Assembly (NCBI GenBank): GCA_029247025.1
Contig: JAQWLZ010000005.1
Span: forward strand, 1-24,000
Origin: Alphaproteobacteria bacterium
GTDB taxonomy: Bacteria; Pseudomonadota; Alphaproteobacteria; TMED109
Length of the DNA: 24,000 bases
Direction: 5' to 3'
In this document: piece after piece, positions 1,438 through 17,097 of the stretch
How positions within the stretch are numbered: the first letter of the stretch is position 1
Layout of the letters: each line of letters begins with the position of its first letter
Notes under the pieces: generated by a model
What the model was told of the DNA's origin: nothing
Databases searched by the model: none
Seen by the model: only the letters and a program-made list of their open reading frames with translations
Position numbers and translations under genes: made by a program

Positions 1438-1914
1438 ATGTATATTTACTTTTTAAAAATTATTTTTATCTATTTAATAATAAATTTCAGTTTTGTAAAT
1501 TTATTAAAATCGCAAGACTTAACTAGACAAGAGCCTATTGAAAAAATAGTTTACTTCAAAGGAGTTTCAGGAGAATCTCATTATTATGAACCAAATGAAT
1601 TAGTATTTGAAACTGGTAAATTGTATAAATTAAAATTATTAAATAATAGTGATTCTAAACATTATTTTTCATCAGGTTCTTTTTCTAAATCTATTTTTAC
1701 AAGAAAAATATAAGTAAATTTTGAGGGTAAGAAATTAGCCGAGGTAAAAGGTATTATTAATGAGGTTGAAGTATGGCCAAATCATGAAGTTGAATGGTGG
1801 TTTGTGCCCATTAAAACGGGTCGATTTGAAGATTTATATTGTAGAGTTAAAGATATGAAAAATGGATTAAAACATAGTGAAATGGGTATGCAGGGTACTA
1901 TAATTATTAATTAA
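1438..1914 (+). pseudogene. Secreted type-1-copper cupredoxin interrupted by one in-frame TAA (1711-1713)
   Basis: ORF 1438-1713 encodes a signal peptide plus the N-terminal half of a cupredoxin (YEPNELVFETGKLYKLKLLNNSDSKHYF). The same frame continues after the TAA for 66 more codons to TAA at 1912-1914. That part encodes the C-terminal half with Cys/His/Met ligands (FEDLYCRVKDMKNGLKHSEMGMQGTIIIN). The second half has no start codon of its own. Confidence 0.65.
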
Positions 1915-2012
1915 GCTATTCGATTTATCTGCTTTAAAAAATATCATTAAATTTTACATATATAATTTTCTATTAAGTATGATTATATTACTGTATTTCA
2001 TAGGAGTATATT

Positions 2013-2402
2013 ATGACATCTGAAATTTTTTATTTAGTTTTAAGTACAGGTTTATGTCTAATTTTATGGCTACCTTATTTATTAGAAAGAATTTTTAATC
2101 AAGGTTTAATAGATACTGCAGGTTATCCAGAAAAAATTGCAGCGCCTGCTAAGTGGGCACAAAGGTCAAAATTAGCACATAGCAATATGGTAGAAAATTT
2201 ACCTCTTTTTGCAATTTTAATTATATGTCTAAATATTTTAGAAATATCTAATTCAAATACATTATTAGCAGCTAGCTTATTCTTTTATGCAAGAATTATT
2301 CATGCAGTGGTATATACATTAGGTATACCATGGGTAAGAACTTTAGCATTCGTAGCATCATGGTTAGCAAATATTATTTTATTTATAAATATTATTTTAT
2401 AA
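2013..2402 (+). CDS. MAPEG-family membrane protein (membrane glutathione S-transferase-like)
   Basis: 129 aa with about 4 TM segments and the MAPEG signature RSKLAHSNMVENLPLFAILI (compare R.H.N..EN.P.F). AGGAG lies 7 nt upstream of the ATG. Confidence 0.7.
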   Translation: MTSEIFYLVLSTGLCLILWLPYLLERIFNQGLIDTAGYPEKIAAPAKWAQRSKLAHSNMVENLPLFAILIICLNILEISNSNTLLAASLFFYARIIHAVVYTLGIPWVRTLAFVASWLANIILFINIIL

Positions 2403-2442
2403 TTCATATACACTTTAATCTTGTTAAGAGATTAGTCATATA

Positions 2443-2784
2443 ATGTTTTCAATTTCTTTTCTTATTAGTATAATTAGAATAGCTACATTTGTAATATTTG
2501 CTTTTCTGCTTGAAAAAATATTTTATAATAGAAATTTAAATTCAGAACAAAAAAAATTATATAACTATAATAGCCGAAATAATATTAGTTCATATTTAAT
2601 TATAGGACTTTCAGTATCCACTATTTTTAATATTACTGAAGATTCTTATATTTATAGAATTAATAGTTTAATGGCAATATATGGGCCATGGCTTTTTATA
2701 TTAACTGGAGTATTAATACTTATAAAAAATTTAAAGTATAATATTAGAGTAAGGCAAAAGATTTTTGAAAATAAAATAGATTAA
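2443..2784 (+). CDS. Hypothetical small membrane protein (about 3 TM)
   Basis: Only an ORF with hydrophobic segments, on the same strand between the MAPEG gene and pmoC. No family recognised. Confidence 0.35.
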   Translation: MFSISFLISIIRIATFVIFAFLLEKIFYNRNLNSEQKKLYNYNSRNNISSYLIIGLSVSTIFNITEDSYIYRINSLMAIYGPWLFILTGVLILIKNLKYNIRVRQKIFENKID

Positions 2785-2908
2785 ATTTTTCATTTAATAA
2801 TTAAATATAAATTTTACATATTAATTAGTTGGTTTCCTAAAAATAAATAAGTTACGGTTTTTAGATTAATTTTTTTAATCTTATGTTTGAATATATTGGG
2901 AGAAAAAC

Positions 2909-3766
2909 ATGGCTTTTATAGATAATATAATACATGGAAAGGGTTTAAAAAAGTCTGTGAATAGTGAAAAGTATTCTAATGATAAATTACCTTGGTATAC
3001 TAAAACAACGGTATTTAAATACGGAAATTTTGGAATATTTATGTTTGGTATTATTGTAGTTGCTGCATTGGTAGCTGGCGCTAGAATTTATCAGGGATTA
3101 TATGGATTTGAGCATGGTCTAGATTCAATGTCACAAGGATTCCAAGATTATTGGATGACTCTTGTTAAAGCAGAGTTAATAGGTATATTTTCATTTAATG
3201 TGGTGCTTTGGTTATATCTTTGGTACTCGAGAGAAAGAGATATGGATAATGTAAAACCCGAAGTTGAATTAAAAAGATATATTAATTTAGTCCTTTGGAT
3301 ATTGTCATATACATTTATAGTTTACTGGACTACTAGTTATTTTGCGTATGCCGATGGTGCCTGGCATCAAACAGTTTTAAGAGATACCAGCTTTACTCCA
3401 AGTCATAATATTTTATTCTATGGCTGTATTCCATTATATTTAACATTTGGAGTAGGAGGTTTTTTGTATGCAATGACAAGACTGCCTTCCTTTGGAAGAG
3501 CCATATCTATTGCTTATACTTTTGCTGTCCTAGGACCTGCTCTTATCCTTCCTAATTTAGGTTTTAATGAATGGGGACATGCATATTGGATGACAGAAGA
3601 AATATTTTCCCATCCACTTCATTGGGGCTTTGTAGTTTTAGGTTGGAATGCTCTAGCTATAGGTGGCGTTCTAATGCAGATTGTTATTGGAATGTCTAAA
3701 TCATTTAAAAAAATAAATTCTAAATTTGCTGATAATTCAAATTCGGAATTTACTGAAAATCTATAA
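2909..3766 (+). CDS. pmoC: Copper membrane monooxygenase subunit C (PmoC/AmoC family)
   Basis: 285 aa polytopic protein. ADGAWHQTVLRDTSFTPSHNILFYG closely matches the PmoC core (..WHQ..RDT.FTPSH..FY). D149/H153/H166 and N220/H224/H238 align with M. capsulatus PmoC D156/H160/H173 and N227/H231/H245 at a constant offset of 7. RBS is GGGAG. Confidence 0.93.
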   Translation: MAFIDNIIHGKGLKKSVNSEKYSNDKLPWYTKTTVFKYGNFGIFMFGIIVVAALVAGARIYQGLYGFEHGLDSMSQGFQDYWMTLVKAELIGIFSFNVVLWLYLWYSRERDMDNVKPEVELKRYINLVLWILSYTFIVYWTTSYFAYADGAWHQTVLRDTSFTPSHNILFYGCIPLYLTFGVGGFLYAMTRLPSFGRAISIAYTFAVLGPALILPNLGFNEWGHAYWMTEEIFSHPLHWGFVVLGWNALAIGGVLMQIVIGMSKSFKKINSKFADNSNSEFTENL

Positions 3767-3780
3767 TTATAAAATTTATA

Positions 3781-3812
3781 ACACTCCATTAAATAATCAT
3801 TTAATGGAGTGT
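3781..3812 (+). promoter_or_regulatory. Perfect 14-bp stem / 4-nt loop hairpin in the pmoC-pmoA spacer
   Basis: ACACTCCATTAAAT-aatc-ATTTAATGGAGTGT. It starts 15 nt after the pmoC stop and ends 22 nt before the pmoA ATG. It is followed by CTATAAATTT, only a weak U-tract. Confidence 0.6.
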
Positions 3813-3834
3813 CTATAAATTTGGGGGTAGAAGT

Positions 3835-4668
3835 ATGAGTAAATCTGAATCTAGAAGTTTTTTTGGTAAAATTTTCAGAATGAGGTCTGAAGATAGAGAG
3901 ATTCTTAAAATAGTAGGACTGAATAAAGAGCAAGCGGGTTTAGCCAGATATTTTGATTTTTTAGTTGTAGCGGCTGCTTTTTTATTATTTTGCGGTGCAT
4001 TTCACCTGCATGTTATGTTGTCTGCTGGTGACTGGGATATGTTTATAGATTGGAAAGATAGGCAATACTGGCCTTTAATTATTCCGATTGATACAATTAT
4101 GTTTCCGGCCGCTGTTCAAGCAGCTTTTTGGTATTATTTTAGACTTCCAATAGGAGCTACTTTATGCGGTGTTTGTCTTTTAACATCGGTATGGATTGGA
4201 ACATATAGTTATTGGCATTTATGGACTATGTTTCCTATAGTTTTAAATGTACCATCTATAATTATAGCAGGATGTATTTTACTAGATGTAATTTTACTTA
4301 TTTTTAGAAGATGGATATTTGTTGCATGTATAGGAGCTCCATTATTTGCTTTAACTTTTTATCCTAGTAATATGGCGGCTTTAACGGGTTATTATGTTCC
4401 AGTTGAACATTTAGGGTCCATGGCATCAATGGCTGATGTTATTGGCTATACTTTTCCTAGATCTGCAACACCTGAATATATTAGAATTATTGAAACAGGT
4501 ACTTTGAGAACATTTGAGGGTACTTCAGTATGGGTTTCAGGAGTATTTGCTGCTTTTGTGTGCATATTTTTATATATGCTTTGGTGGCAGATTGGAATGG
4601 CTTTTTCTACAGTTAAAACTTGGTCACAATCTCCTAAACTTAAAAAATATTTGGGATTTAAGGGATAG
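3835..4668 (+). CDS. pmoA: Copper membrane monooxygenase subunit A (PmoA/AmoA family)
   Basis: 277 aa with long colinear similarity to PmoA as I recall it: SAGDWDMFIDWKDRQYW, MFPAAVQAAFW, RLPIGATLC, YVPVEH, TPEYIRIIETGTLRTFEG. RBS is GGGGG. Confidence 0.95.
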   Translation: MSKSESRSFFGKIFRMRSEDREILKIVGLNKEQAGLARYFDFLVVAAAFLLFCGAFHLHVMLSAGDWDMFIDWKDRQYWPLIIPIDTIMFPAAVQAAFWYYFRLPIGATLCGVCLLTSVWIGTYSYWHLWTMFPIVLNVPSIIIAGCILLDVILLIFRRWIFVACIGAPLFALTFYPSNMAALTGYYVPVEHLGSMASMADVIGYTFPRSATPEYIRIIETGTLRTFEGTSVWVSGVFAAFVCIFLYMLWWQIGMAFSTVKTWSQSPKLKKYLGFKG

Positions 4669-4671
4669 CAA

Positions 4672-5961
4672 ATGAAAATTAATTATACAAAATTATTAAA
4701 AATATTTTTAATATCAATATTTTATTTTGTTATTGATATGGTAGTGGCATATGCACATGGCGAAAAAGCTATGGAACCATATTTTAGAACAAGGACTGTT
4801 ATGTTTTATGATGTCACTTGGTCTACAGATAATGTAAAAGTAGGAGAGAATGTAACTATAGAGGGTAAATTTAGATTACATAGTGATTGGCCACAAGCAG
4901 TAGATGACCCTGACGTAATATATGTAAATCAAAGTATACCAGGTCCAGTATTTGCAAAAATTGAATCTTACTTAAATGGAGTTCCTGCACGACAATCTTT
5001 TAGAGATATGGAAGTTGGTAAAGATTACCATTACAAGATGGTGCTTCAAGGGAGAGTTCCTGGAAACCATCATGTGCACCCTGGAATAGCAATTAAAGGC
5101 TCTGGAACAATTATTGGTCCAGGACAGTTTATTAAGGTGTCAGGTTCACAAAAAGATTTTAAATTTCCTGTAACTACGATGGATGGAGTATTAATTGAAG
5201 ATTTAGAAACATATGCACTAGCAGATGTATTTAAATGGCATTCTACGCTAGCAATTCTGGGAATTTTTTGGCTACTTTGGTGGGTTTGGAGGCCACTATT
5301 AATTCCTAGATATCAAGCATTAAAGCAAGGACGAGAAGATTTATTAATAACTAGACTAGATTTAACAGTAGGAATTTTATTAGGAGTATTTGTTTTTGTT
5401 GCCATTGTTTATAATTATAATGTTCAGGCTAATAAATATCCTATAACAGTTCCTTTACAGACTAGTAGAATGTATACAGATCCTTTACCTGTTGCTGATC
5501 CACAAATTAAAATTAATGTCAGTCGTGCAGAATATGATATTCCAGGAAGAACTATGCGTATGTGGGTTGAAGTAAAAAACAATGGAGATAATAAAGTACG
5601 TTTAGGTGAGTTAACAACGGCTAATTTAAGGTTTATAAATAAATCTTTCGGTCATGCTATGAATAATGTAACTGCAAATTATCCATCAGAACATATGGCA
5701 GATGGTGGGTTAGAAATAGATAAGGATAAGTATATAAACCCAGGAGAAAGTCATAAAATGTTCATTACTGCTCAGGATGCAAGATGGGAAACCGAACGTC
5801 TTACAGCATTTTTAACGGACGTTGATGCCAGAGTAGGTGCATTATTGTTTTTTTATGATGAAGAAGGTAATAGAAAGATACTTGATGTAGCGTCATCAAT
5901 ATTACCAGTATTTACAGATGATGATGGAACTGGTCCAAGTTATCAAAGGATTGGAAGGTAG
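4672..5961 (+). CDS. pmoB: Copper membrane monooxygenase subunit B (PmoB/AmoB family)
   Basis: 429 aa. A signal peptide ends AYA|HGEKAMEPYFRTRTV (compare HGEKSQAAFMRMRT in PmoB). An H-V-H pair sits in PGNHHVHPG..GPGQFIKVSG. Two central TM helices separate two cupredoxin-like halves. It starts 3 nt after the pmoA stop. Confidence 0.93.
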   Translation: MKINYTKLLKIFLISIFYFVIDMVVAYAHGEKAMEPYFRTRTVMFYDVTWSTDNVKVGENVTIEGKFRLHSDWPQAVDDPDVIYVNQSIPGPVFAKIESYLNGVPARQSFRDMEVGKDYHYKMVLQGRVPGNHHVHPGIAIKGSGTIIGPGQFIKVSGSQKDFKFPVTTMDGVLIEDLETYALADVFKWHSTLAILGIFWLLWWVWRPLLIPRYQALKQGREDLLITRLDLTVGILLGVFVFVAIVYNYNVQANKYPITVPLQTSRMYTDPLPVADPQIKINVSRAEYDIPGRTMRMWVEVKNNGDNKVRLGELTTANLRFINKSFGHAMNNVTANYPSEHMADGGLEIDKDKYINPGESHKMFITAQDARWETERLTAFLTDVDARVGALLFFYDEEGNRKILDVASSILPVFTDDDGTGPSYQRIGR

Positions 5962-5962
5962 C

Positions 5963-6457
5963 GTGCTAAATTTAAAAAAATCAAGATTTCTTTATTTTAT
6001 AATTATAAGCATCTTAGGTTTATTATTTACATTTACTAGTAACGCACATACTTACAAGAAAATGGATGTTGAAATTATTCATCCTTGGTGTGTAGCTACT
6101 TTATCGGGCGGTAATTCAAATGCGTATATTACTATTTCTAATGATTCTAATAAAGACGTAGAATTAATAGGAATTAGTTCTGATTTTATTCAACATATAA
6201 TGATTATGAAAAATGGTAAATCTATAGAAAAAATTTCTATTTCTGCAGATGGTGGAATAAGAGGCGAAGATGATTTTTCAATTATGTTTCATGGCTCAAA
6301 AAAAGATTTAGTAAGTGGAGAAAATATTCCAGCAATTTTAAAATTTTCATCAGGTATGACAATTGATATTAAGTTTGTTATAGGTGAAAATACTACTCTT
6401 GATGAAAAAGAAAATACAGAAAACAAACAAGAGCATCATGATCATAGTAACCACTAA
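5963..6457 (+). CDS. PCu(A)C-like periplasmic copper chaperone (DUF461) with a His-rich C-terminal tail
   Basis: Family layout: IIHPWCVAT..NAYITISNDSNKDVELIGISS..QHIMIMKNG...IMFHGSKKDLVSGENIPAILKFSSGMTIDIKFVI, with tail EHHDHSNH. I prefer the GTG at 5963 (GGAAGG upstream, 1 nt after the pmoB stop, directly preceding the signal peptide) over the track's ATG at 5918 inside pmoB. Confidence 0.7.
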   Translation: MLNLKKSRFLYFIIISILGLLFTFTSNAHTYKKMDVEIIHPWCVATLSGGNSNAYITISNDSNKDVELIGISSDFIQHIMIMKNGKSIEKISISADGGIRGEDDFSIMFHGSKKDLVSGENIPAILKFSSGMTIDIKFVIGENTTLDEKENTENKQEHHDHSNH

Positions 6458-7028
6458 TAAATTGCACTTATATTTAAAGTTTTTTTTATTATATTCTTTT
6501 TTATTAGTAATTTTAATTCCTAAAAGTTTTGCCCATGGAGGTTTATCTTTAGATGAAGATTATTGTGTATTAACAGTCGGTAAATATGAAATGCATTTTA
6601 GCGGCTACCAACCAGAAAATAATGGTCCTAAAGAATTTTGCGAAGATATTCCTGAGACAGGAAATACAATTGTGGTATTAGATTTTATGGATGATGAATT
6701 ACGTTCGCTCCCCGTTGAAGTAAGAATAATTCTTGATACGGAAGAAAATAATGAGGATTTAGAAAGTATTACTGTATATAAAAAAGATTATAAAATATAT
6801 AAAAATGGAACAATAAGTTTAAGAAAAAATTTTGAAAACAAAGGAAAATTCATAGGTTATGTAACAGTAAAGGATGAAAATAATTTCATAATATCTGAAT
6901 TTCCATTTTCAGTAGGCATAGAAAGAAAAAGTTCATCTTATATTTACTTTATCATATTGGCTCTAATTACTGGAGCATCATTATTTTATTTTGGTAATAA
7001 GATTAGAAATAAATCGTTGAATGCGTAA
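6438..7028 (+). CDS. Orphan periplasmic protein with a C-terminal TM anchor and predicted N-terminal His (PmoD/AmoD-like position and architecture; homology unverified)
   Basis: Signal peptide ...ILIPKSFA|HGGLSLDEDYCVLTVGKYEMHFSGYQPENNGPKEFCEDIP, then an acidic beta-rich domain and a C-terminal helix YIYFIILALITGASLFYFG. The ATG at 6438 is chosen because it directly precedes the signal peptide. It overlaps the upstream stop by 20 nt. Confidence 0.6.
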   Translation: MIIVTTNKLHLYLKFFLLYSFLLVILIPKSFAHGGLSLDEDYCVLTVGKYEMHFSGYQPENNGPKEFCEDIPETGNTIVVLDFMDDELRSLPVEVRIILDTEENNEDLESITVYKKDYKIYKNGTISLRKNFENKGKFIGYVTVKDENNFIISEFPFSVGIERKSSSYIYFIILALITGASLFYFGNKIRNKSLNA

Positions 7029-7386
7029 TCTTTTAAAATATGTTTTATTAATATTTATATTTGAATATAATTATGCTTGTGCACACGCAGTATTAGAGTT
7101 TTCTGAACCAGCAAGGAGAGCTATATTATATAGAGCTCCTGAGCAAGTTGTTTTAACTTTTAATGAACCTGTAGAAATAGAATTTTCTAAAATACTATTA
7201 ATGAATAATGAAGATAAAATAATAGCTTCAAGTAGTAATCTGAAAAATATATATGATAATAATTCAATAGGTATGCAAATTCCTAAGTTAACTTCAGGAA
7301 TATATTTTATTCAATTTCAAGTTCTTTCAATTGATGGACATAAAGTAAAAGGCAGATATAAATTTACTATTAAGGATAGTAATTAA
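7021..7386 (+). CDS. copC: CopC-family periplasmic copper-binding protein
   Basis: 121 aa. The signal peptide ends ACA|HAVLEFSEPA. VVLTFNEPVE..FSKI, GIYFIQFQVLSIDGHKVKGRYKFTI matches the CopC/YobA pattern (HA.L..S.P...V.L.F.E.v...G.Y.v.w.v.S.DGH...G.f.F.v). It overlaps the upstream gene by 8 nt. Confidence 0.85.
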   Translation: MRNLLKYVLLIFIFEYNYACAHAVLEFSEPARRAILYRAPEQVVLTFNEPVEIEFSKILLMNNEDKIIASSSNLKNIYDNNSIGMQIPKLTSGIYFIQFQVLSIDGHKVKGRYKFTIKDSN

Positions 7387-7391
7387 TTCAA

Positions 7392-9338
7392 ATGGTTGAA
7401 ATACTTCTAAGTATCTCAAAATTTTTTCAAAGTATAATTTTAACATTTACACTTGGGTTTTATTTTGTAAATTATTACATAATAAAAAAATTTAAATATA
7501 GTATTAGTATTATTAATAGAATTACTCTGTATCTAATAATAGTATTAATAATATCAATTATTATACTTTTTCTTCAAGTTTATTATCGTTATGAAGATAT
7601 AAATGAATTACTTAATTTAAACTATATTATTACAATCTTATTTAAAACAAGGTTTGGCGGAATATGGTTAATAAAATTTTTTATTTTTATATTATTAATT
7701 ATAATATGTAGAATAAGAAATATTAACAATTTCTTAATAATATTTTTATTATCTTTGTCTTTAGGCTTAGTAACTCTGACAGGTCATGCTATTTCATCTG
7801 ATATGGTTTATGTAACTATTCCAGTTAATTTTATTCATATTGTTTCTGTTAGCTTATGGGTTGGAGCTTTACCATACCTCTTTTTTAATATATCAAAAGA
7901 TAATAATTCAGTAATTTACCAAGTTAAAAGATTTTCATCTTTTGCTTCTTATAATATGGTTTTTATATTATTTTCTGGTTTCTTATTATCATTAATAAAC
8001 TTAGATTATAGTTTTGCTGCATTATTAGGCACTGATTATGGTCAAGTTATAATTTTAAAATTATTATTTGTATCAATAGCATTACTTAGCGCTCTTTATA
8101 TAAGAATGTCTTTATTAAATGGAAAAAAATTTTTAAAATTTAATTTTTCTATTAAAAATATATTAAAGTTAGAGATTATTTCTGTTGTATTTATTTTTGG
8201 TATTGGAATTTTTCTTTCACAAACTATACCAGGAGCACACGATGAAATAGAGTGGCCATTAAATTTTAGATTATCTATAGATGTTGCAATGGAAGATACT
8301 ATAAATAAAAATAGTATTTTATTCCTATTAATTTTTATTAGTTTGTTTCTTGGTATAATTTTTATGGATTTTATTTTAAATAAAAAATTTAGTAAATCTT
8401 TCTTTTATTCAATTTCTATTATATCTATTTCAGGATTAGGTATAGTTTACTTATTATCTATTGAAGCTTACCCTGTAACCTATAAGCAACCGTCTGTCCC
8501 TTACTCGGCAATATCTGTTTATAATGGAAAATTATTATATAGAAATAATTGCGTACAATGTCACGGCTATTCTGGTCAAGGCGATGGGATAATAGTAAAT
8601 GAAGATTTAGCTATTTTACCTGCAAATTTAACTGAACCACATACTGCCTATCATACTGCTGGAGATATTTATTGGTGGTTAACAAACGGAATGCCTCCAA
8701 GCATAATGCCAGGATTTGAGAGTATATTGAATGAAGATAATAGGTGGGATTTAATAAATTTTTTAAGAACTTTATCTTTAAGTTATGAGGCAAGAATACT
8801 AAATAATAAAATTGTTTATAAAAAGCCTTGGTTACCAGCAGTAGATTTTGACTTTGTAACTCTAAATGGAAAAACAGGAAGGTTATCTCAGTATAGAGGT
8901 AAAAAAGCAATAATACTTATCATAATGGATAATATAAACAATAATGAAAATAGAATTAATAAAATTATTCAGGCGTATAATGACATAAAAGAATTAGGTG
9001 CAGAGGTATTATTGGTTTCTAGTAATAATAATTTTAAGCAAGAAAATTTCAATAAAAAATACAAAAATATTCCTTTTCCTATAATATATGAAGGTTCTGA
9101 AGAAATATTAAACACCTATAATTTATTTAGAAGAACTATATTAAATCCTGATAAAAAAGATAAAAATGAAAGCATAGAATATATCGAGTTTTTAATTGAT
9201 CAGTATGGTTATATTAGAACTAGATGGAAGCAAGATGAAATTAATGATGAAAATAAATCACTTAATTATTTATCAGCAATACAAGAATTAGAAAAAGAAG
9301 GTAAAATATTGGATTATCCTGATGAGCACGTTCATTAA
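7392..9338 (+). CDS. copD: CopD-family membrane protein fused to a class-I c-type cytochrome domain and a Cys-less thioredoxin/AhpC-TSA-like domain
   Basis: The N-terminal ~360 aa is polytopic with CopD motifs (LTGHAISSD; IHIVSVSLWVGALPYLF). Then comes the heme motif NNCVQCHGYSGQGDG with a distal GMPPSIMPGF. After that, VDFDFVTLNGKTGRLSQYRGKKAIILIIMD...GAEVLLVSSNN...FPIIYE looks like a redoxin fold lacking the CxxC/peroxidatic Cys. Confidence 0.8.
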   Translation: MVEILLSISKFFQSIILTFTLGFYFVNYYIIKKFKYSISIINRITLYLIIVLIISIIILFLQVYYRYEDINELLNLNYIITILFKTRFGGIWLIKFFIFILLIIICRIRNINNFLIIFLLSLSLGLVTLTGHAISSDMVYVTIPVNFIHIVSVSLWVGALPYLFFNISKDNNSVIYQVKRFSSFASYNMVFILFSGFLLSLINLDYSFAALLGTDYGQVIILKLLFVSIALLSALYIRMSLLNGKKFLKFNFSIKNILKLEIISVVFIFGIGIFLSQTIPGAHDEIEWPLNFRLSIDVAMEDTINKNSILFLLIFISLFLGIIFMDFILNKKFSKSFFYSISIISISGLGIVYLLSIEAYPVTYKQPSVPYSAISVYNGKLLYRNNCVQCHGYSGQGDGIIVNEDLAILPANLTEPHTAYHTAGDIYWWLTNGMPPSIMPGFESILNEDNRWDLINFLRTLSLSYEARILNNKIVYKKPWLPAVDFDFVTLNGKTGRLSQYRGKKAIILIIMDNINNNENRINKIIQAYNDIKELGAEVLLVSSNNNFKQENFNKKYKNIPFPIIYEGSEEILNTYNLFRRTILNPDKKDKNESIEYIEFLIDQYGYIRTRWKQDEINDENKSLNYLSAIQELEKEGKILDYPDEHVH

Positions 9339-10170
9339 AAGATACCAGATAATTATTTATTGTTCTTTAGTATTTACTTTATGGATATTAATAAGTTTTA
9401 GTTTTATTTTTTGTAGTTTTACTGATTATTGTATTATAAAAAAAATAGATAATAGTATTACTTTGCAGGAGCATATACCCAAATTAACTTGTGATAATAT
9501 AATGGCACAAGGTATAAAGAATATTTATACAAAAAGTAAATTAAAGGTATTAGTAATTCCTCCTAAAAATCATTTTGCTGATAAAAAATATTCTGCAATT
9601 ATAGTTCTTCCACCAGCAGGAAAAACTGTAAGAAAATCAGAGGGTTTTTATGAAGGGTTAACTTCATTAGCTAATAATAGTGGTTTCATAATTGCTTATA
9701 GCGATTACCTTCCTCTAAATGAAACTAATTTATCTAAAATATCAGAGGTAAAAAATACTCTGAGTGAAAATTATTGTATTAATAAAAATGATATAACTAT
9801 GTTAGGACATTCTGATGGAGCTACAAATGCCGCAATTATTTCTTATAGAGATATTGGAATAAAAATAAAGAATCTTATTATTTCTGCTAATGGGATTAAT
9901 AAAAAAGCTTTAGAAAGTGAAATATGTCCTAAAAAATTTTTTTCCCTTATGATACTGCATAGTGTAAATGATGCTTTTTTTAGAGATTTTGGCAGAGATA
10001 ATATTGAATGGATTTCGCTTTGCAGTAACTGCAAGAATACTTATGAAAAGCTAGATAATGGGTGTATGAAAATAAAAGATTGCGATAGAAAAATTGTATA
10101 TTGTGAAGGTAAAGAGTCACATAATGAATGGCCAAAAAGAAATAATATTATTATTGATTTTTTAAAGTAA
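9322..10170 (+). CDS. Alpha/beta-hydrolase esterase, PHB-depolymerase/LpqC-like family, N-terminally anchored
   Basis: N-terminal TM/signal segment, then IIVLPPAGKT...GFIIAYSDY, a nucleophile elbow MLGHSDGA (GxSxG), LHSVNDAFF, and a Cys-rich C-terminus ending ..VYCEGKESHNEWP as in the COG3509-type esterases I recall. The ATG overlaps the copD 3' end by 17 nt. Confidence 0.6.
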   Translation: MSTFIKRYQIIIYCSLVFTLWILISFSFIFCSFTDYCIIKKIDNSITLQEHIPKLTCDNIMAQGIKNIYTKSKLKVLVIPPKNHFADKKYSAIIVLPPAGKTVRKSEGFYEGLTSLANNSGFIIAYSDYLPLNETNLSKISEVKNTLSENYCINKNDITMLGHSDGATNAAIISYRDIGIKIKNLIISANGINKKALESEICPKKFFSLMILHSVNDAFFRDFGRDNIEWISLCSNCKNTYEKLDNGCMKIKDCDRKIVYCEGKESHNEWPKRNNIIIDFLK

Positions 10171-10238
10171 AACTAAATCTTTTTATAAAGATGTTAGAAT
10201 AATTTAAAAATTAATTTTAGTAGATATAAATATTAAAT

Positions 10239-13031
10239 TTAAAAGCTCATTAAAGATGAATCGATTGACTTTTCTTTTGGCGGAGCAAATTTAGTTAAAT
10301 CAATCCCTTTAACTGCATTTTTATATTCTTCGATAGTAGGAGTTCTTCCCAAAATTGCTGATAGAACCACAACGGGAGTTGAAGCTAAAAGAGATTCTCC
10401 TTTTTTATCTTCAGAATCTTCCACAACTCTTCCTTTGAATAGTCTTGTTGAGGTAGCCATTACCGTATCACCTTTTGATGCTTTTTCTTGGTTTCCCATA
10501 CAAAGATTACAACCAGGTCTTTCTAAATATAATATATTTTCATATTGCGTTCTTGCCGCATTTTTTGGATTAACATCATCGAATTCAAAACCTGAATACT
10601 TTTGTAAAATACTCCAATCACCCTCTGACTTAAGTTCATTTATAATATTATATGTGGGAGCAGCTACTACTAAAGGAGCTTTAAATTTAACACTACCAGA
10701 TTGATCTTCCAAATTTCTAAGCATTTGTGCAACTATTTTTACATCACCTTTATGCACCATACAGGAACCCACAAATCCAAGGTCTACGGTTTTCTCCGCA
10801 CCATAATAGGATATAGGCCTAATGGTGTCGTGTGTATAACGTTTAGATACATCAATATTATTAACATCTGGGTCAGCAATCATAGGCTCATCTATTTGAT
10901 CTAATTCAACAACTACTTCAGCGTAATATTTAGCATTTTCATCAGGTTTTAAAGCAGGTTTAGTACCAGATCTGATTTCAGAAATACGTTTGTTTGCAAT
11001 CTCTACTAATCTTTCTAGCATTGCTGCATCGTTTTCCATTCCATTATCTATCATTATTTGTATGCGATCTCTTGCTATATTGAGTGACTCAATTAATGTA
11101 CTATCATTAGAAATACATATTGATGCTTTTGCCTTCATTTCGGCAGTCCAATCAGTAAATGTAAAAGCTTGGTCTGCTAAAAGAGTACCAGTATGAACTT
11201 CAATCACTCTACCTTGAAAAACATTATCACCAAATTGTTTTAACATTTGCGATTGTGTGGCATGAACGACATCACGGAAATCAAGATGTTCTGACATTTT
11301 TCCCTTAAAAGTAACTTTAACAGATTCAGGGATTGGCATAGTAACCTCTCCTGTTGCAAGAGCTAATGCAACGGTTCCGGAATCTGCTCCGAAAGCAACT
11401 CCCTTAGACATACGAGTATGAGAATCTCCTCCAATTATAATCGCCCAATCATCTACAGTAATATCATTTAATACTTTATGAATTACATCTGTCATTGCAT
11501 GATAAACGCCTTTCGGGTCTCTGCCAGTTATTAAACCAAAATCGTGCATAAATTTCATTAATTTAGGTGTGTTTGTCTGAGCCTTTGAGTCCCAAACAGA
11601 AGCGGTATGACATCCAGATTGATAAGCTCCATTGACGGTAGGTGAGATAGTTGTCGCTGCCATAGATTCAAGTTCTTGTGCAGTCATTAATCCAGTAGTA
11701 TCCTGAGACCCAACTATATTTACTTTTGCTCTAACATCTGAACCTGCATGGAGAATAGAGTCTAGTTCAACACCAACAGCATTAGCATTAAATATTTTTT
11801 CAACAGCAGTAAGTCCTTGGTCCTTATGTAATACTTCTTTAGAAGGTGCATAAGCTGATTGTAAATCAATATTAAGGGCCTCACATGCAAAACTCTGTAA
11901 TTTTTTTCCAAATACAATTGCATATGAACCGCCTGCTTTCATAAATTCTGTTTTTTGAGGATTAAAGGATGATGAAATATCAACTAGTTCTTCATTACCA
12001 TTTTTATCATATAGTTTTTTATTTTTAGTATTTATGTTGAGAACAGTTCCTGTTTCTACTGAATACTTTTGTTCAAGAACAGGGTTACCATCATTATTTA
12101 TAATAGGGTTACCATTTGGATCTAATTTTTTTACCCAATTTTTTAAGTCAATTCCTATTCCACCAGTTACGCCTACAGTAGTTAAGAATATAGGAGAAAT
12201 ACCATTAGTTCCAGCAACTATTGGTGCATTATTAACAAAAGGTATGAATGGACTCGTTTTTTTTCCAGTAAGAAGGGCTACATTATTTACCCCAGACATT
12301 CTCGATGACCCTACACCCATAGTCCCTTTCTCTGCAATTAGCATAACACTTTTATCTGGATTCTCATTTTGTAATTTTTTAATTTCAGCTTGAGCTTTTT
12401 CTGTAATCATACATTTACCATGAAGTTCTCTATCTGATCGAGAATGTGCTTGATTTCCAGGAGATAAAAGATCTGTTGAGATGTCACCTTCTCCTGCCAC
12501 ATAAGTAACTACTTTTATTTCTTCATTTATATCTGGTAGGCTTGTATAAAATTCTGCTTTTGAATAACTTTTAAGAATATCTAGAGCTATTAAATTACCA
12601 CTCTGATAGGCATTTTTAAGACGGGTAGTATCAGCTTCGTATAAAAATACTTGTGTTTTAAGAATTTCTGCAGCATCAATAGCATTTCTTTGATTATCAC
12701 TTAAAGCTAAATCTAGAAGGATCTCTATAGATGGGCCTCCTTTCATGTGCGATAAAAGCTCTAATGCAAATGGTTTTGAAATTTCTGCAACCGATGTATT
12801 ATCTAAAATAATTTTTTTTAAAAATTTTGCTTTTTCATAAGCTGCGGTAGTAGTACCTGGAAGAGTATTATAAATTAGAAAATTTAGAGAGTCATCTCTG
12901 TATATACTGTTTTTATCTTCTATATTTATAATAAGTTCTTTTATTAATTCACCATCATCAATTGGCTTTGGTTTTAAATCTTGTTTTTTTCTTTCATTAA
13001 TTTCATTTAAGTAATCTTTGTACAAATTCAT
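10239..13031 (-). CDS. acnB: Aconitate hydratase B (bifunctional aconitase 2 / 2-methylisocitrate dehydratase type)
   Basis: 930 aa, colinear with E. coli AcnB: N-terminal HEAT-like domain, VGSQDTTG, GGDSHTR, FVGSCMVH, and PGCNLCMGNQ (Fe-S Cys ligands). Confidence 0.92.
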   Translation of the reverse strand: MNLYKDYLNEINERKKQDLKPKPIDDGELIKELIINIEDKNSIYRDDSLNFLIYNTLPGTTTAAYEKAKFLKKIILDNTSVAEISKPFALELLSHMKGGPSIEILLDLALSDNQRNAIDAAEILKTQVFLYEADTTRLKNAYQSGNLIALDILKSYSKAEFYTSLPDINEEIKVVTYVAGEGDISTDLLSPGNQAHSRSDRELHGKCMITEKAQAEIKKLQNENPDKSVMLIAEKGTMGVGSSRMSGVNNVALLTGKKTSPFIPFVNNAPIVAGTNGISPIFLTTVGVTGGIGIDLKNWVKKLDPNGNPIINNDGNPVLEQKYSVETGTVLNINTKNKKLYDKNGNEELVDISSSFNPQKTEFMKAGGSYAIVFGKKLQSFACEALNIDLQSAYAPSKEVLHKDQGLTAVEKIFNANAVGVELDSILHAGSDVRAKVNIVGSQDTTGLMTAQELESMAATTISPTVNGAYQSGCHTASVWDSKAQTNTPKLMKFMHDFGLITGRDPKGVYHAMTDVIHKVLNDITVDDWAIIIGGDSHTRMSKGVAFGADSGTVALALATGEVTMPIPESVKVTFKGKMSEHLDFRDVVHATQSQMLKQFGDNVFQGRVIEVHTGTLLADQAFTFTDWTAEMKAKASICISNDSTLIESLNIARDRIQIMIDNGMENDAAMLERLVEIANKRISEIRSGTKPALKPDENAKYYAEVVVELDQIDEPMIADPDVNNIDVSKRYTHDTIRPISYYGAEKTVDLGFVGSCMVHKGDVKIVAQMLRNLEDQSGSVKFKAPLVVAAPTYNIINELKSEGDWSILQKYSGFEFDDVNPKNAARTQYENILYLERPGCNLCMGNQEKASKGDTVMATSTRLFKGRVVEDSEDKKGESLLASTPVVVLSAILGRTPTIEEYKNAVKGIDLTKFAPPKEKSIDSSLMSF

Positions 13032-13180
13032 GTTTGTATCCTAAATATAAGCAAATTTTAGCGAAAAATTGTTAACATATTTATATCTTTATTATAATTT
13101 AAGTCAAGGTGAAAGCAAGTGCTACTGTCATATATACAGTTTTAAAGATAGTATAAAAAAATTAAATTTTACTTTTTTAT

Positions 13181-13582
13181 TTATAATTTATTACCGTAAT
13201 CAATTATCAAATCATCTATTAACGGGATATCTGCTTCAAGCCAATTTAAGGATTTTAAATCATTTATTTTTAGTAATTTATAATCAGTATGTTCGTATAA
13301 TTTTCCATTAAAATCTTCAGTTATGCATATATAGCTATGTAGCTTGATACCAAAATCTGGGTAATTATGAGTTATAATCTTATATTTTTTTTGAATTATT
13401 ATATCTATACTTAGTTCTTCTTTGATCTCTCTATTTAAAGCATCAATATAAGATTCATCATTTTTAATTTTCCCACCAGGAAATTCATATTTAAAAGAAA
13501 CATAATCGTATTTACTATATCCTCTTTTTAGACATAATATTTTATCTTCAATGAAAATTATTGCTGCAACGACTTCTATCAC
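13181..13582 (-). CDS. NUDIX hydrolase (MutT-like)
   Basis: Nudix box GGKIKNDESYIDALNREIKEELSI. I shorten the track ORF to the in-frame GTG at 13582 ((M)IEVVAAIIFIEDKILCLKR, a typical MutT N-terminus). The 81-aa upstream extension is low-complexity and runs antisense through the DUF2805 gene. The start is uncertain. Confidence 0.7.
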   Translation of the reverse strand: MIEVVAAIIFIEDKILCLKRGYSKYDYVSFKYEFPGGKIKNDESYIDALNREIKEELSIDIIIQKKYKIITHNYPDFGIKLHSYICITEDFNGKLYEHTDYKLLKINDLKSLNWLEADIPLIDDLIIDYGNKL

Positions 13583-13688
13583 ATTAAAACCTAGGTAATT
13601 TTTTTTATATATTAAACTAATAAAAAATAATGATCTATTTAAATTTTTCTTCACGTATTTAAATAGTATATTTTGTAATTGGAATGAT

Positions 13689-13886
13689 ATGAAAAATTTA
13701 GATGAAATTATTGAAATGGCGTGGTGTGATAAAACTAGCTTTGATGATATTAAATCCTTTTGTAATTTAGAAGAAAGAGATGTTATAAAAATAATGAGAA
13801 AGAATTTAAAACCTTCAAGTTTCAAAATGTGGAGAAAGAGAGTTACAGGAAGAAAAAGTAAGCATTCAAATTATAATAAATTATAA
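13689..13886 (+). CDS. DUF2805 / TIGR03643-family small protein
   Basis: 65 aa. IIEMAWCDKTSFDDI...VIKIMRKNLKPSSFKMWRKRVTGRKSKH matches the conserved pattern of this family as I recall it. Confidence 0.7.
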   Translation: MKNLDEIIEMAWCDKTSFDDIKSFCNLEERDVIKIMRKNLKPSSFKMWRKRVTGRKSKHSNYNKL

Positions 13887-13890
13887 CAAA

Positions 13891-14232
13891 CTATTTTTGT
13901 ATTTCGATATTGGAGCATCCTTCAATGCTTTTCTCTCCGTTAGGCATGATTGTATTACAAAAGTTAGTGGACCTTATGAATGAGCTAGTTAAATTTACTT
14001 CGAATAGATTAGAATATGATAAATCAGTTCCAATAAGTATTGAGCCCTTTAATGTTGACCCTTGTAGATTAGAACCTTTTAAATTCATACCCCCAAGATC
14101 TGCGTTTGATAAATCACAATTTAAACAAATATGGGTATTGTTTAGTTTTAATAGATCATTTTCATCGTATGCTTTTAATTCAAACGATATAATAAAAAGC
14201 ATTAAATATTTTAACATTTTTAAAGATTCCAA
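13891..14232 (-). CDS. Secreted pentapeptide-repeat protein
   Basis: Signal peptide, then tandem A(D/N)LxX pentapeptides: CDLSNADLGGMNLKGSNLQGSTLKGSILIGTDLSYSNLFEVNLTSS. Confidence 0.75.
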   Translation of the reverse strand: MESLKMLKYLMLFIISFELKAYDENDLLKLNNTHICLNCDLSNADLGGMNLKGSNLQGSTLKGSILIGTDLSYSNLFEVNLTSSFIRSTNFCNTIMPNGEKSIEGCSNIEIQK

Positions 14233-14350
14233 TTATATTAAATATAATTTTTATATGGCATAGGTAACAAAATGGATCATTTAAAAAAATTGTGTAGTAA
14301 AGTAATATTTTTTAATTGTATAAATAAATGGAGAATTGGAGGTATGTTAT

Positions 14351-14845
14351 ATGATTGAAAATTTTAATAAAGTTTCTGATAGTTATGACTCTGATAAAGT
14401 AGAATGGAGAAATTATAAAGACTTAAATAATAAAGACTTCAAAATTGATTTTGATTACAGTCTTTTAGGCTTTGATATTCAAAATGGAAGATTAGATATG
14501 CTTCTTAGATATCCTGAAGGAAGCAGTCACTGCAGAAGGCACCGTCATGTAGCCTCTACAGTAACTCTAGTTTTACAAGGTGAGCAATACCTTACAGAAA
14601 TTAATGAAGACGGCTCCAAAAATTTAATATATAGGAAAAAAGGAGATTATGCATTGGCAAAATCAGATGCTTCTCCTCACTTAGAGCACGGCGGTGAAAA
14701 GGGTGGAACAGTATTACTATCTATGCAAGCTAAAGAAGGTATCTTATTTGAATATTATGATGAGAATATGTCTAATAGTTGGACAGTCTCAGTAGAAGAG
14801 TTTGTTAGAAGTTGGGAAGAAGGTGCTACTTATGGTGATAAATAA
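14351..14845 (+). CDS. Cupin-fold protein (ChrR-like cupin), function unknown
   Basis: YPEGSSHCRRHRHVASTVTLVLQGEQY fits the cupin metal motif (H.H....v.vl.G). The ATG at 14351 has GGAGG 8 nt upstream, so it is preferred over the TTG at 14336. Confidence 0.55.
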   Translation: MIENFNKVSDSYDSDKVEWRNYKDLNNKDFKIDFDYSLLGFDIQNGRLDMLLRYPEGSSHCRRHRHVASTVTLVLQGEQYLTEINEDGSKNLIYRKKGDYALAKSDASPHLEHGGEKGGTVLLSMQAKEGILFEYYDENMSNSWTVSVEEFVRSWEEGATYGDK

Positions 14846-14859
14846 TATAGAATTAATAA

Positions 14860-15873: not shown

Positions 15874-15987
15874 TTTTTAATTATTTATAAGTAAAATAAA
15901 GAAAATATATTTCTATTATGAAGATTATATGAAGTCAGAAATTTATTTAAAATATATAAAAAGTAAAAGTATTTCCAAAAAAAGACT

Positions 15988-17079: not shown

Positions 17080-17097
17080 ATATTAAGGGATTTAATA

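What the first reader, a model, noticed from the sequence alone, without database searches (positions are those of the whole stretch)
6438..7028. Orphan anchored periplasmic protein in the PmoD/AmoD slot, a candidate new copper protein
This ~197-aa protein has a signal peptide, a ~150-aa acidic beta-rich ectodomain and a single C-terminal TM helix. That is the architecture of PmoD/AmoD, the copper proteins encoded after pmoB/amoB. I could not recognise the sequence as any family. Near the mature N-terminus it has potential Cu ligands: His1, then C-x8-M-H in DYCVLTVGKYEMHF. A second Cys follows 24 residues after that His (EFCEDIP). The Cys/Met/His combination resembles the ligand types reported for the PmoD CuA-like site, but I cannot confirm spacing or homology from memory. 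It is translationally coupled on both sides, to the PCu(A)C-like gene and to CopC.
Basis: partly seen in the sequence, partly recalled or inferred. Interest (0 to 1): 0.65.

Follow-up and report, generated by a model that had tools for sequence, protein, structure and literature searches.

The report
AmoD-type copper protein, not an orphan
The gene is real. It encodes a membrane-anchored periplasmic protein, but not a new family: it is a clear member of the known PmoD/AmoD copper-protein family that accompanies copper methane/ammonia monooxygenases, here in an uncultured AT-rich marine bacterium.

Summary
Window 6438-7028 (+) encodes a 196-aa protein.

It is not an orphan:
- phmmer hits the PmoD crystal structure 6CPD at E=4.6e-16.
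- An AlphaFold model superposes on 6CPD (TM 0.86, rmsd 1.8 A).
- It is 49% identical to Nitrosomonas europaea AmoD (orf5).
- It carries the published AmoD-class motif Cx8MHxnC (C43, M52, H53, C68).
- The family has 783 clusters at 50% identity.
- In 74 of 80 genomic loci, relatives sit beside xmoCAB and/or copCD.

It lacks the Met at C+8 that PmoD needs for its CuA site (Glu51 here). Its own Met52 is Ile in close relatives. H33, C43, H53 and C68 are invariant.

Best reading: a periplasmic, membrane-tethered copper-binding accessory of the adjacent CuMMO. It is probably not a PmoD-type CuA centre, and its exact role is unresolved, as it is for the whole family.

Novelty: new member of a known kind.

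Side observation: the whole 8.3-kb CuMMO/AmoD/Cop cluster is a strain-variable island in a streamlined marine alphaproteobacterium.

The parts
6438..7028 (+). amoD-type pmoD/amoD family gene (196 aa plus stop)
   Evidence: ORF list. phmmer to 6CPD PmoD E=4.6e-16. Foldseek TM 0.86 to 6CPD. 49% identity to N. europaea AmoD.
6438..6533 (+). Predicted Sec signal peptide (aa 1-32), with cleavage S-F-A|H
   Evidence: Hydropathy. The A|HGGLS junction is invariant in alignment A1. Fisher 2018 proteomics found PmoD without its signal peptides. No SignalP run was available.
6534..6641 (+). Metal-binding region: His33 (6534-6536, predicted mature N-terminus), Cys43 (6564-6566), Met52-His53 (6591-6596), Cys68 (6639-6641). 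This is the Cx8MHxnC motif.
   Evidence: Sequence. H33, C43, H53 and C68 are invariant in 27 sequences; M52 is Met or Ile. Motif classes are defined in PMC6189053.
6534..6932 (+). Periplasmic cupredoxin-like ectodomain (aa 33-165), acidic (pI 4.6)
   Evidence: AF2 model, mean pLDDT 80.7 over the whole protein, 10 strands. Superposes on 6CPD with rmsd 1.8 A over 124 columns.
6936..6998 (+). C-terminal transmembrane anchor (aa 167-187)
   Evidence: Hydropathy above 1.6. Helix 168-194 in the model. This is a family-defining feature.
2909..5961 (+). xmoCAB, the copper membrane monooxygenase subunits C (2909-3766), A (3835-4668) and B (4672-5961)
   Evidence: Pfam AmoC, AMO and Monooxygenase_B, E=1e-74 to 1e-134. 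NCBIfam AmoB_BACT 495 bits. Equidistant from solved AMO and pMMO structures.
5918..6457 (+). PCu(A)C-like copper chaperone gene. Predicted mature N-terminus is His (SNA|HTYK), with a His-rich C-terminal tail.
   Evidence: Pfam PCuAC 43.8 bits, above the 29.4 cut-off. PDB PCuAC hits are weak, E=0.002. Sequence.
7021..7386 (+). CopC gene. Predicted mature N-terminus is His (ACA|HAVLE).
   Evidence: Pfam CopC E=4e-18. Sequence.
7392..9338 (+). CopD - cytochrome c - AhpC/TSA-like fusion gene
   Evidence: Pfam CopD, Cytochrom_C and AhpC-TSA. CVQCH haem motif at aa 387-391, and no Cys in the C-terminal redoxin-like domain.
9322..10170 (+). orf282, a conserved cassette gene. It has an N-terminal TM and a GHSDG motif, which suggests a serine hydrolase.
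   Evidence: Sequence. Homologues lie downstream of copD in L010, L023, L026, L051, L073, L078 and L088. No Pfam hit.
1910..10208 (.). 8.3-kb strain-variable island carrying MAPEG, orf113, xmoCAB, PCuAC, amoD, copC, the copD fusion and orf282
   Evidence: blastn against L082: the flanks are 88-95% identical, and the two alignment blocks end about 28 bp apart in L082. Junction alignment.

Best explanation
The gene encodes an AmoD-class member of the PmoD/AmoD family.

Proposed path of the protein:
1. It is exported by the Sec pathway (inferred).
2. Signal peptidase I cuts after Ala32, which exposes His33 (inferred).
3. The acidic cupredoxin-like domain stays tethered to the periplasmic face of the inner membrane by the C-terminal helix (inferred).
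4. It binds copper through the surface cluster near its N-terminus. The invariant residues there are Cys43 and His53, with invariant His33 and Cys68 as likely extra ligands or a redox-switch disulfide partner (inferred).

It is co-transcribed with xmoCAB, PCuAC, CopC and CopD (inferred from gene overlaps). It serves the monooxygenase, most likely in copper supply or metallation of the enzyme, and possibly in electron delivery.

The Met that PmoD needs for its homodimeric CuA site is replaced here by Glu51. The site is therefore probably not a PmoD-type CuA centre.

Shown: family membership, fold, motif class, residue conservation and gene linkage. Inferred: export, cleavage, copper binding and the physiological role.
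For: Sequence and fold:
- phmmer to 6CPD PmoD: E=4.6e-16 over aa 42-160.
- AF2 model, pLDDT 80.7. Its top Foldseek hit is 6CPD at E=2e-12, TM 0.86, rmsd 1.8 A, 34% identity. The next hits have TM no higher than 0.64 on the same measure and rmsd of 4.7 A or more.
- blastp: 49% identity (E=1.5e-49) to N. europaea AmoD/orf5, 32% to PmoD Rockwell, 35% to AmoE.

Motif and conservation:
- The Cx8MHxnC motif is the AmoD class of Fisher 2018.
- H33, C43, H53 and C68 are invariant in 27 diverse homologues.

Genomic linkage:
- Of the 80 loci kept from 260 confirmed relatives, 74 have xmoCAB and/or copC-copD(cyt c) in the flank. The best-matching copy always carries Cx8[M/I]H.
- The same cassette occurs in related marine contigs L001, L086 and L088.

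Literature:
- PmoD homologues of the four motif classes that were tested bind copper in vitro.
- Disruption of pmoD gives a copper-dependent growth defect (PMC6189053).
Against: - No AmoD-class (Cx8MH) protein has been characterised biochemically. The 2026 review says little work has been done on amoD.
- The CuA-essential Met (PmoD M49) is Glu51 here, and Met52 is Ile in close relatives. The published copper site therefore cannot simply be transferred.
- The two invariant Cys form a disulfide in the 6CPD crystal, so a purely structural role for them is possible.
- The model is least confident at aa 28-40 (pLDDT below 60), exactly where His33 lies.
- No physical association of PmoD with pMMO has been seen in structures.
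Confidence: 0.8

Rival explanations
1. It forms a PmoD-like mixed-valent CuA centre at a homodimer interface. Two Cys43 thiolates bridge two Cu, and His53 provides the N ligands. It acts as the electron-transfer partner that feeds reducing equivalents to the CuMMO.
For: Cys43 and His53 align exactly with the PmoD CuA ligands Cys41 and His51. The fold is the same. It is encoded in the operon, as are the CuA-forming PmoDs. A cytochrome c domain is fused to the adjacent CopD, so periplasmic electron carriers are encoded in the cluster.
Against: Fisher 2018 found CuA formation only in Cx7MxHxnC proteins, and M49A abolished it. The aligned position here is Glu51 and is not conserved (E/K/M/V/N/T). 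On a beta-strand, Met52 (i-1 of His) would point to the opposite face from His53, and it is Ile in L088, P0015, P0016 and P0019.
Confidence: 0.15
2. It binds Cu(II) in a histidine-brace-like site. The ligands would be the free amino group and imidazole of the mature N-terminal His33 together with His53. It would then work as one link in a relay of N-terminal-His copper carriers (PCuAC, AmoD, CopC) that hands copper to the N-terminal-His CuB site of XmoB.
For: His33 directly follows the predicted cleavage site and is invariant in AmoD- and AmoE-type sequences. Four consecutive gene products are predicted to start with His after cleavage: XmoB A|HGEK, PCuAC A|HTYK, AmoD A|HGGL and CopC A|HAVL. 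For PmoB CuB, CopC and the PCuAC domain of PmoF, His-brace copper binding by an N-terminal His is established (PMC8424229). The published experiments could not have seen such a site. The characterised PmoD has Glu at this position (Suppl. Data 2 column H1), and all constructs carried an extra N-terminal Ser-Met.
Against: There is no experimental evidence for any family member. The model has low confidence for aa 28-40, so proximity of His33 to His53 is not shown. A conserved His next to a cleavage site could also serve signal-peptidase recognition or folding. The third comammox paralogue has Gln-His instead.
Confidence: 0.3
3. It is a non-metal structural or assembly factor. The membrane-tethered beta-sandwich would stabilise or organise CuMMO trimers in the membrane, with the two Cys forming a structural disulfide.
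For: Cys41-Cys65 form an intramolecular disulfide in 6CPD. A structural role is one of the three options named by Fisher 2018. Family classes with only CxnC exist.
Against: All tested PmoD homologues bound copper, including a CxnC-only one. The invariant His33 and His53 are hard to explain by structure alone. Cryo-EM structures of pMMO/AMO have not shown PmoD/AmoD bound.
Confidence: 0.1
4. One reading: an orphan protein founding a new copper-protein family that merely occupies the PmoD slot.
For: No Pfam or NCBIfam model matches. Database names are 'hypothetical protein'.
Against: Direct sequence, profile and fold matches to PmoD/AmoD.
Confidence: 0.01

Closest known systems
AmoD (orf5) of ammonia-oxidising bacteria, e.g. 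Nitrosomonas europaea NE0941/NE2060; also the middle AmoD paralogue of comammox Nitrospira
   Same: - 49% identity over 160 aa.
- The same Cx8MHxnC motif, A|HGGLS mature N-terminus and FCEDIP box.
- One C-terminal TM.
- Encoded downstream of xmoB and directly upstream of copC-copD(cyt c).
   Different: - A PCuAC gene sits between xmoB and amoD where beta-AOB have amoE. No amoE paralogue is present.
- The host is an AT-rich marine alphaproteobacterium, not a known nitrifier.
- The associated CuMMO is only 36-46% identical to AOB and comammox subunits.
PmoD of Methylocystis sp. Rockwell (Met49242_1452; PDB 6CPD), the only structurally and spectroscopically characterised member
   Same: - Same fold (TM 0.86, rmsd 1.8 A).
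- Signal peptide, ectodomain and TM architecture.
- Two invariant Cys.
- Cys41 and His51 equivalents are conserved (C43, H53).
- Encoded in an extended CuMMO operon with copC, copD and PCuAC.
   Different: - 32-34% identity.
- The motif is Cx8MH, not Cx7MxH. The CuA-essential Met49 position is Glu51.
- It has an N-terminal His where PmoD has Glu, and a linker 4 residues shorter before the first Cys.
- CuA formation is therefore not expected from published criteria.
AmoE (orf4) of beta-AOB
   Same: Same family, with the A|HG mature N-terminus, two Cys, and His at C+10.
   Different: 35% identity over only 106 aa. AmoE has Met at C+8 (Cx7MxH) and a divergent C-terminal half.
N-terminal-His periplasmic copper carriers (CopC; PmoF-type PCuAC; YcnI/DUF1775)
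   Same: All are small, secreted or membrane-tethered beta-sandwich proteins with a conserved His as first mature residue. They are encoded next to copD. YcnI also has a C-terminal TM anchor.
   Different: No sequence relationship: no Pfam CopC, PCuAC or DUF1775 hit at E<=1. There is no significant fold match either; the LPMO and X325 hits have TM of about 0.3. This is a 'works like' analogy only, and it is untested.

Membership tests
PmoD/AmoD family (Fisher et al. 2018) | Detectable sequence homology to PmoD/AmoD periplasmic domains | tested here: met
   phmmer against PDB: 6CPD E=4.6e-16. blastp against NeAmoD E=1.5e-49 and MrPmoD E=7e-23.
PmoD/AmoD family (Fisher et al. 2018) | Cupredoxin-like beta-sandwich periplasmic domain | tested here: met
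   AF2 model pLDDT 80.7. Foldseek 6CPD TM 0.86, rmsd 1.8 A.
PmoD/AmoD family (Fisher et al. 2018) | N-terminal signal peptide | tested here: met
   Hydrophobic aa 9-32 ending in SFA|H, conserved in homologues. No dedicated signal-peptide predictor was available.
PmoD/AmoD family (Fisher et al. 2018) | Two strictly conserved cysteines (CxnC) | tested here: met
   C43 and C68 are invariant in A1 and align with Cys41 and Cys65 of PmoD.
PmoD/AmoD family (Fisher et al. 2018) | Single C-terminal transmembrane helix | tested here: met
   aa 167-187 by hydropathy. Helix 168-194 in the model.
PmoD/AmoD family (Fisher et al. 2018) | Occurs in genomes with a CuMMO, typically next to xmoCAB and/or copCD/PCuAC | tested here: met
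   Same operon as xmoCAB, PCuAC and copCD. 74 of 80 related loci show the same linkage.
PmoD/AmoD family (Fisher et al. 2018) | Binds copper | not testable with these tools
   Needs metal analysis of the purified ectodomain.
AmoD class (orf5; Cx8MHxnC) | Cx8MHxnC motif | tested here: met
   C43-x8-M52-H53-x14-C68. The class is defined in PMC6189053.
AmoD class (orf5; Cx8MHxnC) | Closest to bona fide AmoD rather than to AmoE or PmoD | tested here: met
   49% identity to NeAmoD, against 35% (partial) to NeAmoE and 32% to MrPmoD. In multi-copy loci the best-matching copy is the Cx8MH one.
AmoD class (orf5; Cx8MHxnC) | Gene immediately follows amoB (gamma-AOB) or amoE (beta-AOB) | tested here: not met
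   A PCuAC gene lies between xmoB and this gene. In the related cassette L088, amoD does follow xmoB directly and PCuAC is at the end. This looks like a local rearrangement, not a different family.
CuA-forming PmoD subclass (Cx7MxHxnC) | Met at C+8 and His at C+10 (PmoD Met49 and His51), both required for CuA | tested here: not met
   His53 is at C+10, but C+8 is Glu51 and Met is at C+9. M49A abolishes CuA in PmoD.
CuA-forming PmoD subclass (Cx7MxHxnC) | Copper-dependent homodimer with CuA optical and EPR signature | not testable with these tools
   Needs SEC-MALS, UV-vis and EPR.
   No Pfam or NCBIfam hit at E<=1. Apart from 6CPD, the best Foldseek hits are unrelated beta-sandwiches (E>=6e-5, rmsd >=4.7 A); none is a CopC, PCuAC, YcnI or classical cupredoxin structure.

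The most novel reading that the evidence does not exclude
AmoD-class proteins, including this one, may not be CuA proteins at all. They may hold a previously unseen copper site built on the invariant mature N-terminal His33 (free amine plus imidazole, as in a histidine brace) together with His53 and/or Cys43. Published experiments could not have detected such a site: every construct carried an extra N-terminal Ser-Met, and the one characterised PmoD has Glu at that position. Here the protein would be one step in a portable relay of N-terminal-His copper carriers (PCuAC, AmoD, CopC to XmoB). The whole relay travels with xmoCAB as an 8.3-kb island among streamlined marine alphaproteobacteria.
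Probability: 0.3. Interest if true: 0.55.

Novelty: new member of a known kind. Interest (0 to 1): 0.25.

Why it matters
As a protein it adds little. It is a divergent orthologue of AmoD, from a family described in 2008 and 2018 whose exact role is still open.

Its value is as a data point in three ways:
- The AmoD class keeps His1, Cys, His and Cys invariant across very distant hosts, while the Met is dispensable. This sharpens which ligands to test.
- The AmoD-CopC-CopD(cyt c) module travels with CuMMOs outside classical nitrifiers and methanotrophs.
- The surrounding island suggests that some abundant, streamlined marine alphaproteobacteria carry a CuMMO of unknown substrate.

The third point is the more interesting lead for ocean carbon and nitrogen cycling.

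Tried and rejected
- **Pfam and NCBIfam scans of the target** gave no family. This reflects missing models, not an orphan protein.
- **The look-up of encoding contigs for the window's own protein** found nothing on record.
- **The GTDB species-representative scan** did not recover the host lineage. The best AmoD match was 58% identical, so host taxonomy was inferred only from AcnB.
- **tblastn with the window PCuAC** found no PCuAC in the 80 genome loci at E<=1e-5. It may be too divergent to detect that way. L088 has one, at the end of the cassette.
- **The promoter/terminator scan** was uninformative in this AT-rich DNA: 67 sites found against 67.8 expected.
- **TlpA-like redoxin idea.** I considered that the AhpC/TSA-like domain fused to CopD might act as a TlpA-like reductase keeping the AmoD cysteines reduced. 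I rejected this because the domain contains no cysteine.
- **Model coordinates** are not exposed by the tools. Distances between H33, C43, H53 and C68 could not be measured.
- **The PmoF/PCuAC histidine-brace paper (PMC6827282)** is not held. I cited it only through PMC8424229.
- **Literature searches** for a described marine alphaproteobacterial CuMMO found nothing specific. HIMB59-like affiliation fits the GC content and PhoX but is not shown.
Full report
**Observation**

Window 6438-7028 (+) is an ORF of 196 codons plus stop.
- Kyte-Doolittle analysis gives two hydrophobic segments, aa 9-32 and aa 167-187.
- The first ends in S-F-A|H33, a standard signal-peptidase I site.
- In 27 diverse homologues the junction A|HGGLS is invariant.
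- The intervening 133 residues are acidic: 26 D+E against 15 K+R, pI 4.6.
- The AlphaFold2 model shows ten strands in this stretch.

Two numbers need correcting:
- The ectodomain is 133 aa, not about 150.
- Cys68 lies 15 residues after His53.

The gene overlaps the upstream PCuAC gene by 20 nt and the downstream CopC gene by 8 nt. In-frame alternative starts at 6384 and 6402 exist. Gene calls on related contigs and the homologue alignment use the 6438-equivalent start. The mature protein is unaffected.

**What it is**

Pfam and NCBIfam contain no matching model. That may be why homologues in the databases are named only 'hypothetical protein'. Direct comparison is unambiguous:
- phmmer against all PDB chains finds the PmoD soluble domain of Methylocystis sp. 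Rockwell (6CPD) at E=4.6e-16 over aa 42-160.
- An AF2 model built on 27 homologues has mean pLDDT 80.7.
- Its two top Foldseek hits are the 6CPD chains: E=2e-12, target-normalised TM 0.86, rmsd 1.8 A over 124 columns, 34% identity.
- The next hits are unrelated beta-sandwiches with E of 6e-5 or worse and rmsd of 4.7 A or more.

I took reference sequences from Supplementary Data 3 of Fisher et al. 2018. Against these:

| Reference | Identity | Aligned length | E-value |
|---|---|---|---|
| N. europaea AmoD/orf5 (NE0941) | 49% | 160 aa | 1.5e-49 |
| PmoD Rockwell | 32% | 149 aa | 7e-23 |
| N. europaea AmoE/orf4 | 35% | 106 aa | 2e-21 |

A profile of the alignment finds 783 clusters (50% identity) at E<=1e-3 and 547 at E<=1e-10 in 1.8 billion representatives. 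This is a sizeable, established family.

**Class within the family**

Fisher et al. 2018 (PMC6189053) divide PmoD homologues by their cysteine motif.
- Cx7MxHxnC covers PmoD Rockwell and AmoE. It is the only class shown to form the homodimeric CuA site, with ligands Cys41, Met49 and His51.
- Cx8MHxnC makes up 13.4% of PmoDs. [quoted passage not shown]
- Three further classes exist.

The target is Cx8MHxnC. In the alignments the histidine sits at C+10 in both classes. Cys43 and His53 therefore match PmoD Cys41 and His51. The CuA-essential Met49 position is Glu51 in the target. That position varies among homologues (E/K/M/V/N/T).

The target's own Met52 (C+9) is Ile in its closest marine relatives (L088, P0015, P0016, P0019) and in several MAGs.

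His33, the predicted first mature residue, is invariant in AmoD- and AmoE-type sequences. Fisher's Supplementary Data 2 tabulates this position as 'H1'. It is His in NeAmoD and NeAmoE but Glu in the characterised PmoD.

**Genomic linkage**

The gene lies in a co-oriented, tightly packed cluster of ten genes:
- MAPEG: 2013-2402
- orf113: 2443-2784
- xmoC: 2909-3766
- xmoA: 3835-4668
- xmoB: 4672-5961
- PCuAC: 5918-6457
- amoD: 6438-7028
- copC: 7021-7386
- copD-cytochrome c-AhpC/TSA-like: 7392-9338
- orf282: 9322-10170

A scan of one genome per GTDB species found 260 confirmed relatives. Of the 80 best loci, 74 have xmoCAB and/or copC-copD(cyt c) within the fetched flank. Four of the six exceptions end on short contigs.

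The hosts are:
- comammox Nitrospira;
- Nitrosospira, Nitrosomonas and Nitrosovibrio;
- MAGs labelled Burkholderiales, Rhodocyclales/Rhodocyclaceae, Sterolibacterium, Polycyclovorans, Gammaproteobacteria and Alphaproteobacteria.

The criterion 'homologues never linked to CuMMO or cop genes' is therefore refuted in the opposite sense: linkage is the rule. In beta-AOB the order is amoCAB-amoE(Cx7MxH)-amoD(Cx8MH)-copC-copD, and the target always matches the amoD copy best.

This window differs in having PCuAC where amoE would be. In a related AT-rich marine contig (L088) the cassette is MAPEG-orf-xmoCAB-amoD-copC-copD(cyt c)-orf285-PCuAC. The same parts are kept, and only PCuAC has moved.

**How it most likely works**

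Shown: fold, family, motif class, conserved residues and operon context.

Inferred:
1. Sec export and cleavage before His33.
2. Tethering at the periplasmic face by the C-terminal helix.
3. Copper binding by the N-terminal surface cluster (Cys43, His53, with His33 and Cys68).
4. A role serving the adjacent CuMMO.

The literature supports a copper role for the family. All tested PmoD homologues bind copper, and pmoD disruption in Methylosinus trichosporium OB3b gives a copper-dependent growth defect. The literature leaves the mechanism open: electron supply, copper loading or stabilisation. A 2026 review notes that little work has been done on amoD itself.

A PmoD-type CuA centre is unlikely (about 0.15), for three reasons:
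- The Met at C+8 is missing.
- M49A abolishes CuA in PmoD.
- CuA was confined to the Cx7MxH class.

Musiani et al. 2020 likewise modelled CuA only in NeAmoE, not NeAmoD.

I favour a mononuclear or otherwise different site involved in copper handling. The most interesting untested variant is a histidine-brace-like site using the free N-terminus of His33.
- Four consecutive products of this cluster are predicted to begin with His after cleavage: XmoB A|HGEK, PCuAC A|HTYK, AmoD A|HGGL and CopC A|HAVL.
- For PmoB CuB, CopC and the PCuAC domain of PmoF, N-terminal-His copper binding is established (PMC8424229).
- The published PmoD experiments could not have detected such a site. All constructs carried an extra Ser-Met at the N-terminus, and the studied protein has Glu at H1.
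Geometry therefore could not be checked.

**Comparison with what is known, and novelty**

The protein meets every testable defining feature of the PmoD/AmoD family and of its AmoD class. The one exception is strict adjacency to xmoB, because PCuAC intervenes. It fails the motif test for the CuA-forming subclass. It has no relationship to CopC, PCuAC, YcnI or classical cupredoxin models.

It is a new, divergent member of a known kind. At most about 58% identity links it to anything in GTDB species representatives. Identity to sequences in other marine metagenome contigs, Tara Oceans among them, is 55-99%. The 'orphan / new copper protein' interpretation is not supported. The placement in the 'PmoD/AmoD slot' is correct and is explained by homology.

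**Context noticed on the way**

AcnB next to the cluster is 80-83% identical to alphaproteobacterial AcnB (Roseibium, Rhodobiaceae, Hyphomicrobiales). It is 88-97% identical to many marine metagenome contigs.

In such relatives (L082-L085) the flanks are syntenic at 82-95% nucleotide identity. Window 1910-10208 is absent from them. In L082 the two flanking alignment blocks end about 28 bp apart. The entire CuMMO/AmoD/Cop cassette is therefore a strain-variable 8.3-kb island in a streamlined, roughly 27-32% GC marine alphaproteobacterium.

The XmoA and XmoB proteins are equidistant from solved AMO and pMMO structures. They are closest, at 50-58% identity, to operons in Burkholderiales and Rhodocyclaceae MAGs of unknown function. 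No hao or methanol dehydrogenase lies in the window, so the substrate is unknown.

**Verdict**

This is a real gene and its architecture was correctly read. It is an ordinary AmoD-class member of a known family. Interest is 0.25.

Residual novelty lies in two places:
- the untested copper site of the AmoD class;
- the marine island that carries the gene.

Noticed in passing
window 1910-10208 (flanks 927-1909 and 10209-22029): The whole cluster (MAPEG, orf113, xmoCAB, PCuAC, amoD, copC, copD fusion, orf282) is an 8.3-kb presence/absence island. Closely related marine contigs (L082, L083-85) share both flanks at 82-95% nt identity but lack it. In L082 the two flanking alignment blocks end about 28 bp apart. 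L086 carries the island at the same site.
   Followed up: partly
window 10239-13031 (-) and the whole window (about 27% GC): The host appears to be an uncultured, AT-rich marine alphaproteobacterium. AcnB is 80-83% identical to Roseibium, Rhodobiaceae and Hyphomicrobiales, and 88-97% to Tara and ENA marine contigs. No AmoD match above 58% identity was found among GTDB species representatives. HIMB59-like GC and PhoX are compatible but unproven. A CuMMO in such a lineage was not found described in the literature searched.
   Followed up: partly
window 2909-5961: The CuMMO is of uncertain type. NCBIfam AmoB_BACT is above its cut-off, but AmoA_BACT and AmoC_BACT fall just below theirs. XmoA and XmoB score equally against solved AMO and pMMO structures. 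The closest operons (50-58% identity) are in Burkholderiales and Rhodocyclaceae MAGs and in MAGs labelled Alphaproteobacteria and Bordetella parapertussis; canonical AOB and comammox are only 36-46% identical. No hao or methanol dehydrogenase is nearby.
   Followed up: partly
window 5918-6457: The PCuAC-like protein is atypical. Its predicted mature N-terminus is His (SNA|HTYK). It has a His-rich C-terminal tail (EHHDHSNH). In the PDB alignment the canonical H-x-M appears altered (dfSiMFHG against syHvMFMG). This is reminiscent of the His-brace PCuAC domains of methanotroph PmoF (PMC8424229). It occupies the slot that amoE holds in beta-AOB. In L088 it sits at the end of the cassette.
   Followed up: partly
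window 7392-9338: CopD is fused to a cytochrome c domain (CVQCH at aa 387-391) and to a C-terminal AhpC/TSA-like thioredoxin-fold domain that has no cysteine at all, so it is presumably not redox-active. The CopD-cyt c fusion is shared with AOB and comammox loci. tblastn with the window's AhpC/TSA-like segment found no match in the 80 genome loci.
   Followed up: partly
window 9322-10170: orf282 has no Pfam family. It has an N-terminal TM and a GHSDG serine-hydrolase-like motif. It is conserved downstream of copD in the related non-AOB CuMMO operons L010, L023, L026, L051, L073, L078 and L088. It is a candidate uncharacterised accessory gene of this CuMMO clade.
   Followed up: partly
window 2013-2784: A MAPEG-family membrane protein (2013-2402) and a small hydrophobic orf113 (2443-2784) precede xmoC. 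Both are conserved at that position in L086 and L088, and the orf113-like ORF at least is also there in L001. Their role is unknown.
   Followed up: no
window 3780-3813 (xmoC-xmoA intergenic): A 15-bp-stem inverted repeat lies in the 68-nt spacer between xmoC and xmoA. The scan reported it as terminator-like on the minus strand. It could be an mRNA processing or stability element within the operon.
   Followed up: no
window 15988-18957: PhoD-like and PhoX alkaline phosphatase genes lie side by side in the conserved flank. This fits a phosphorus-limited oligotrophic marine host.
   Followed up: no
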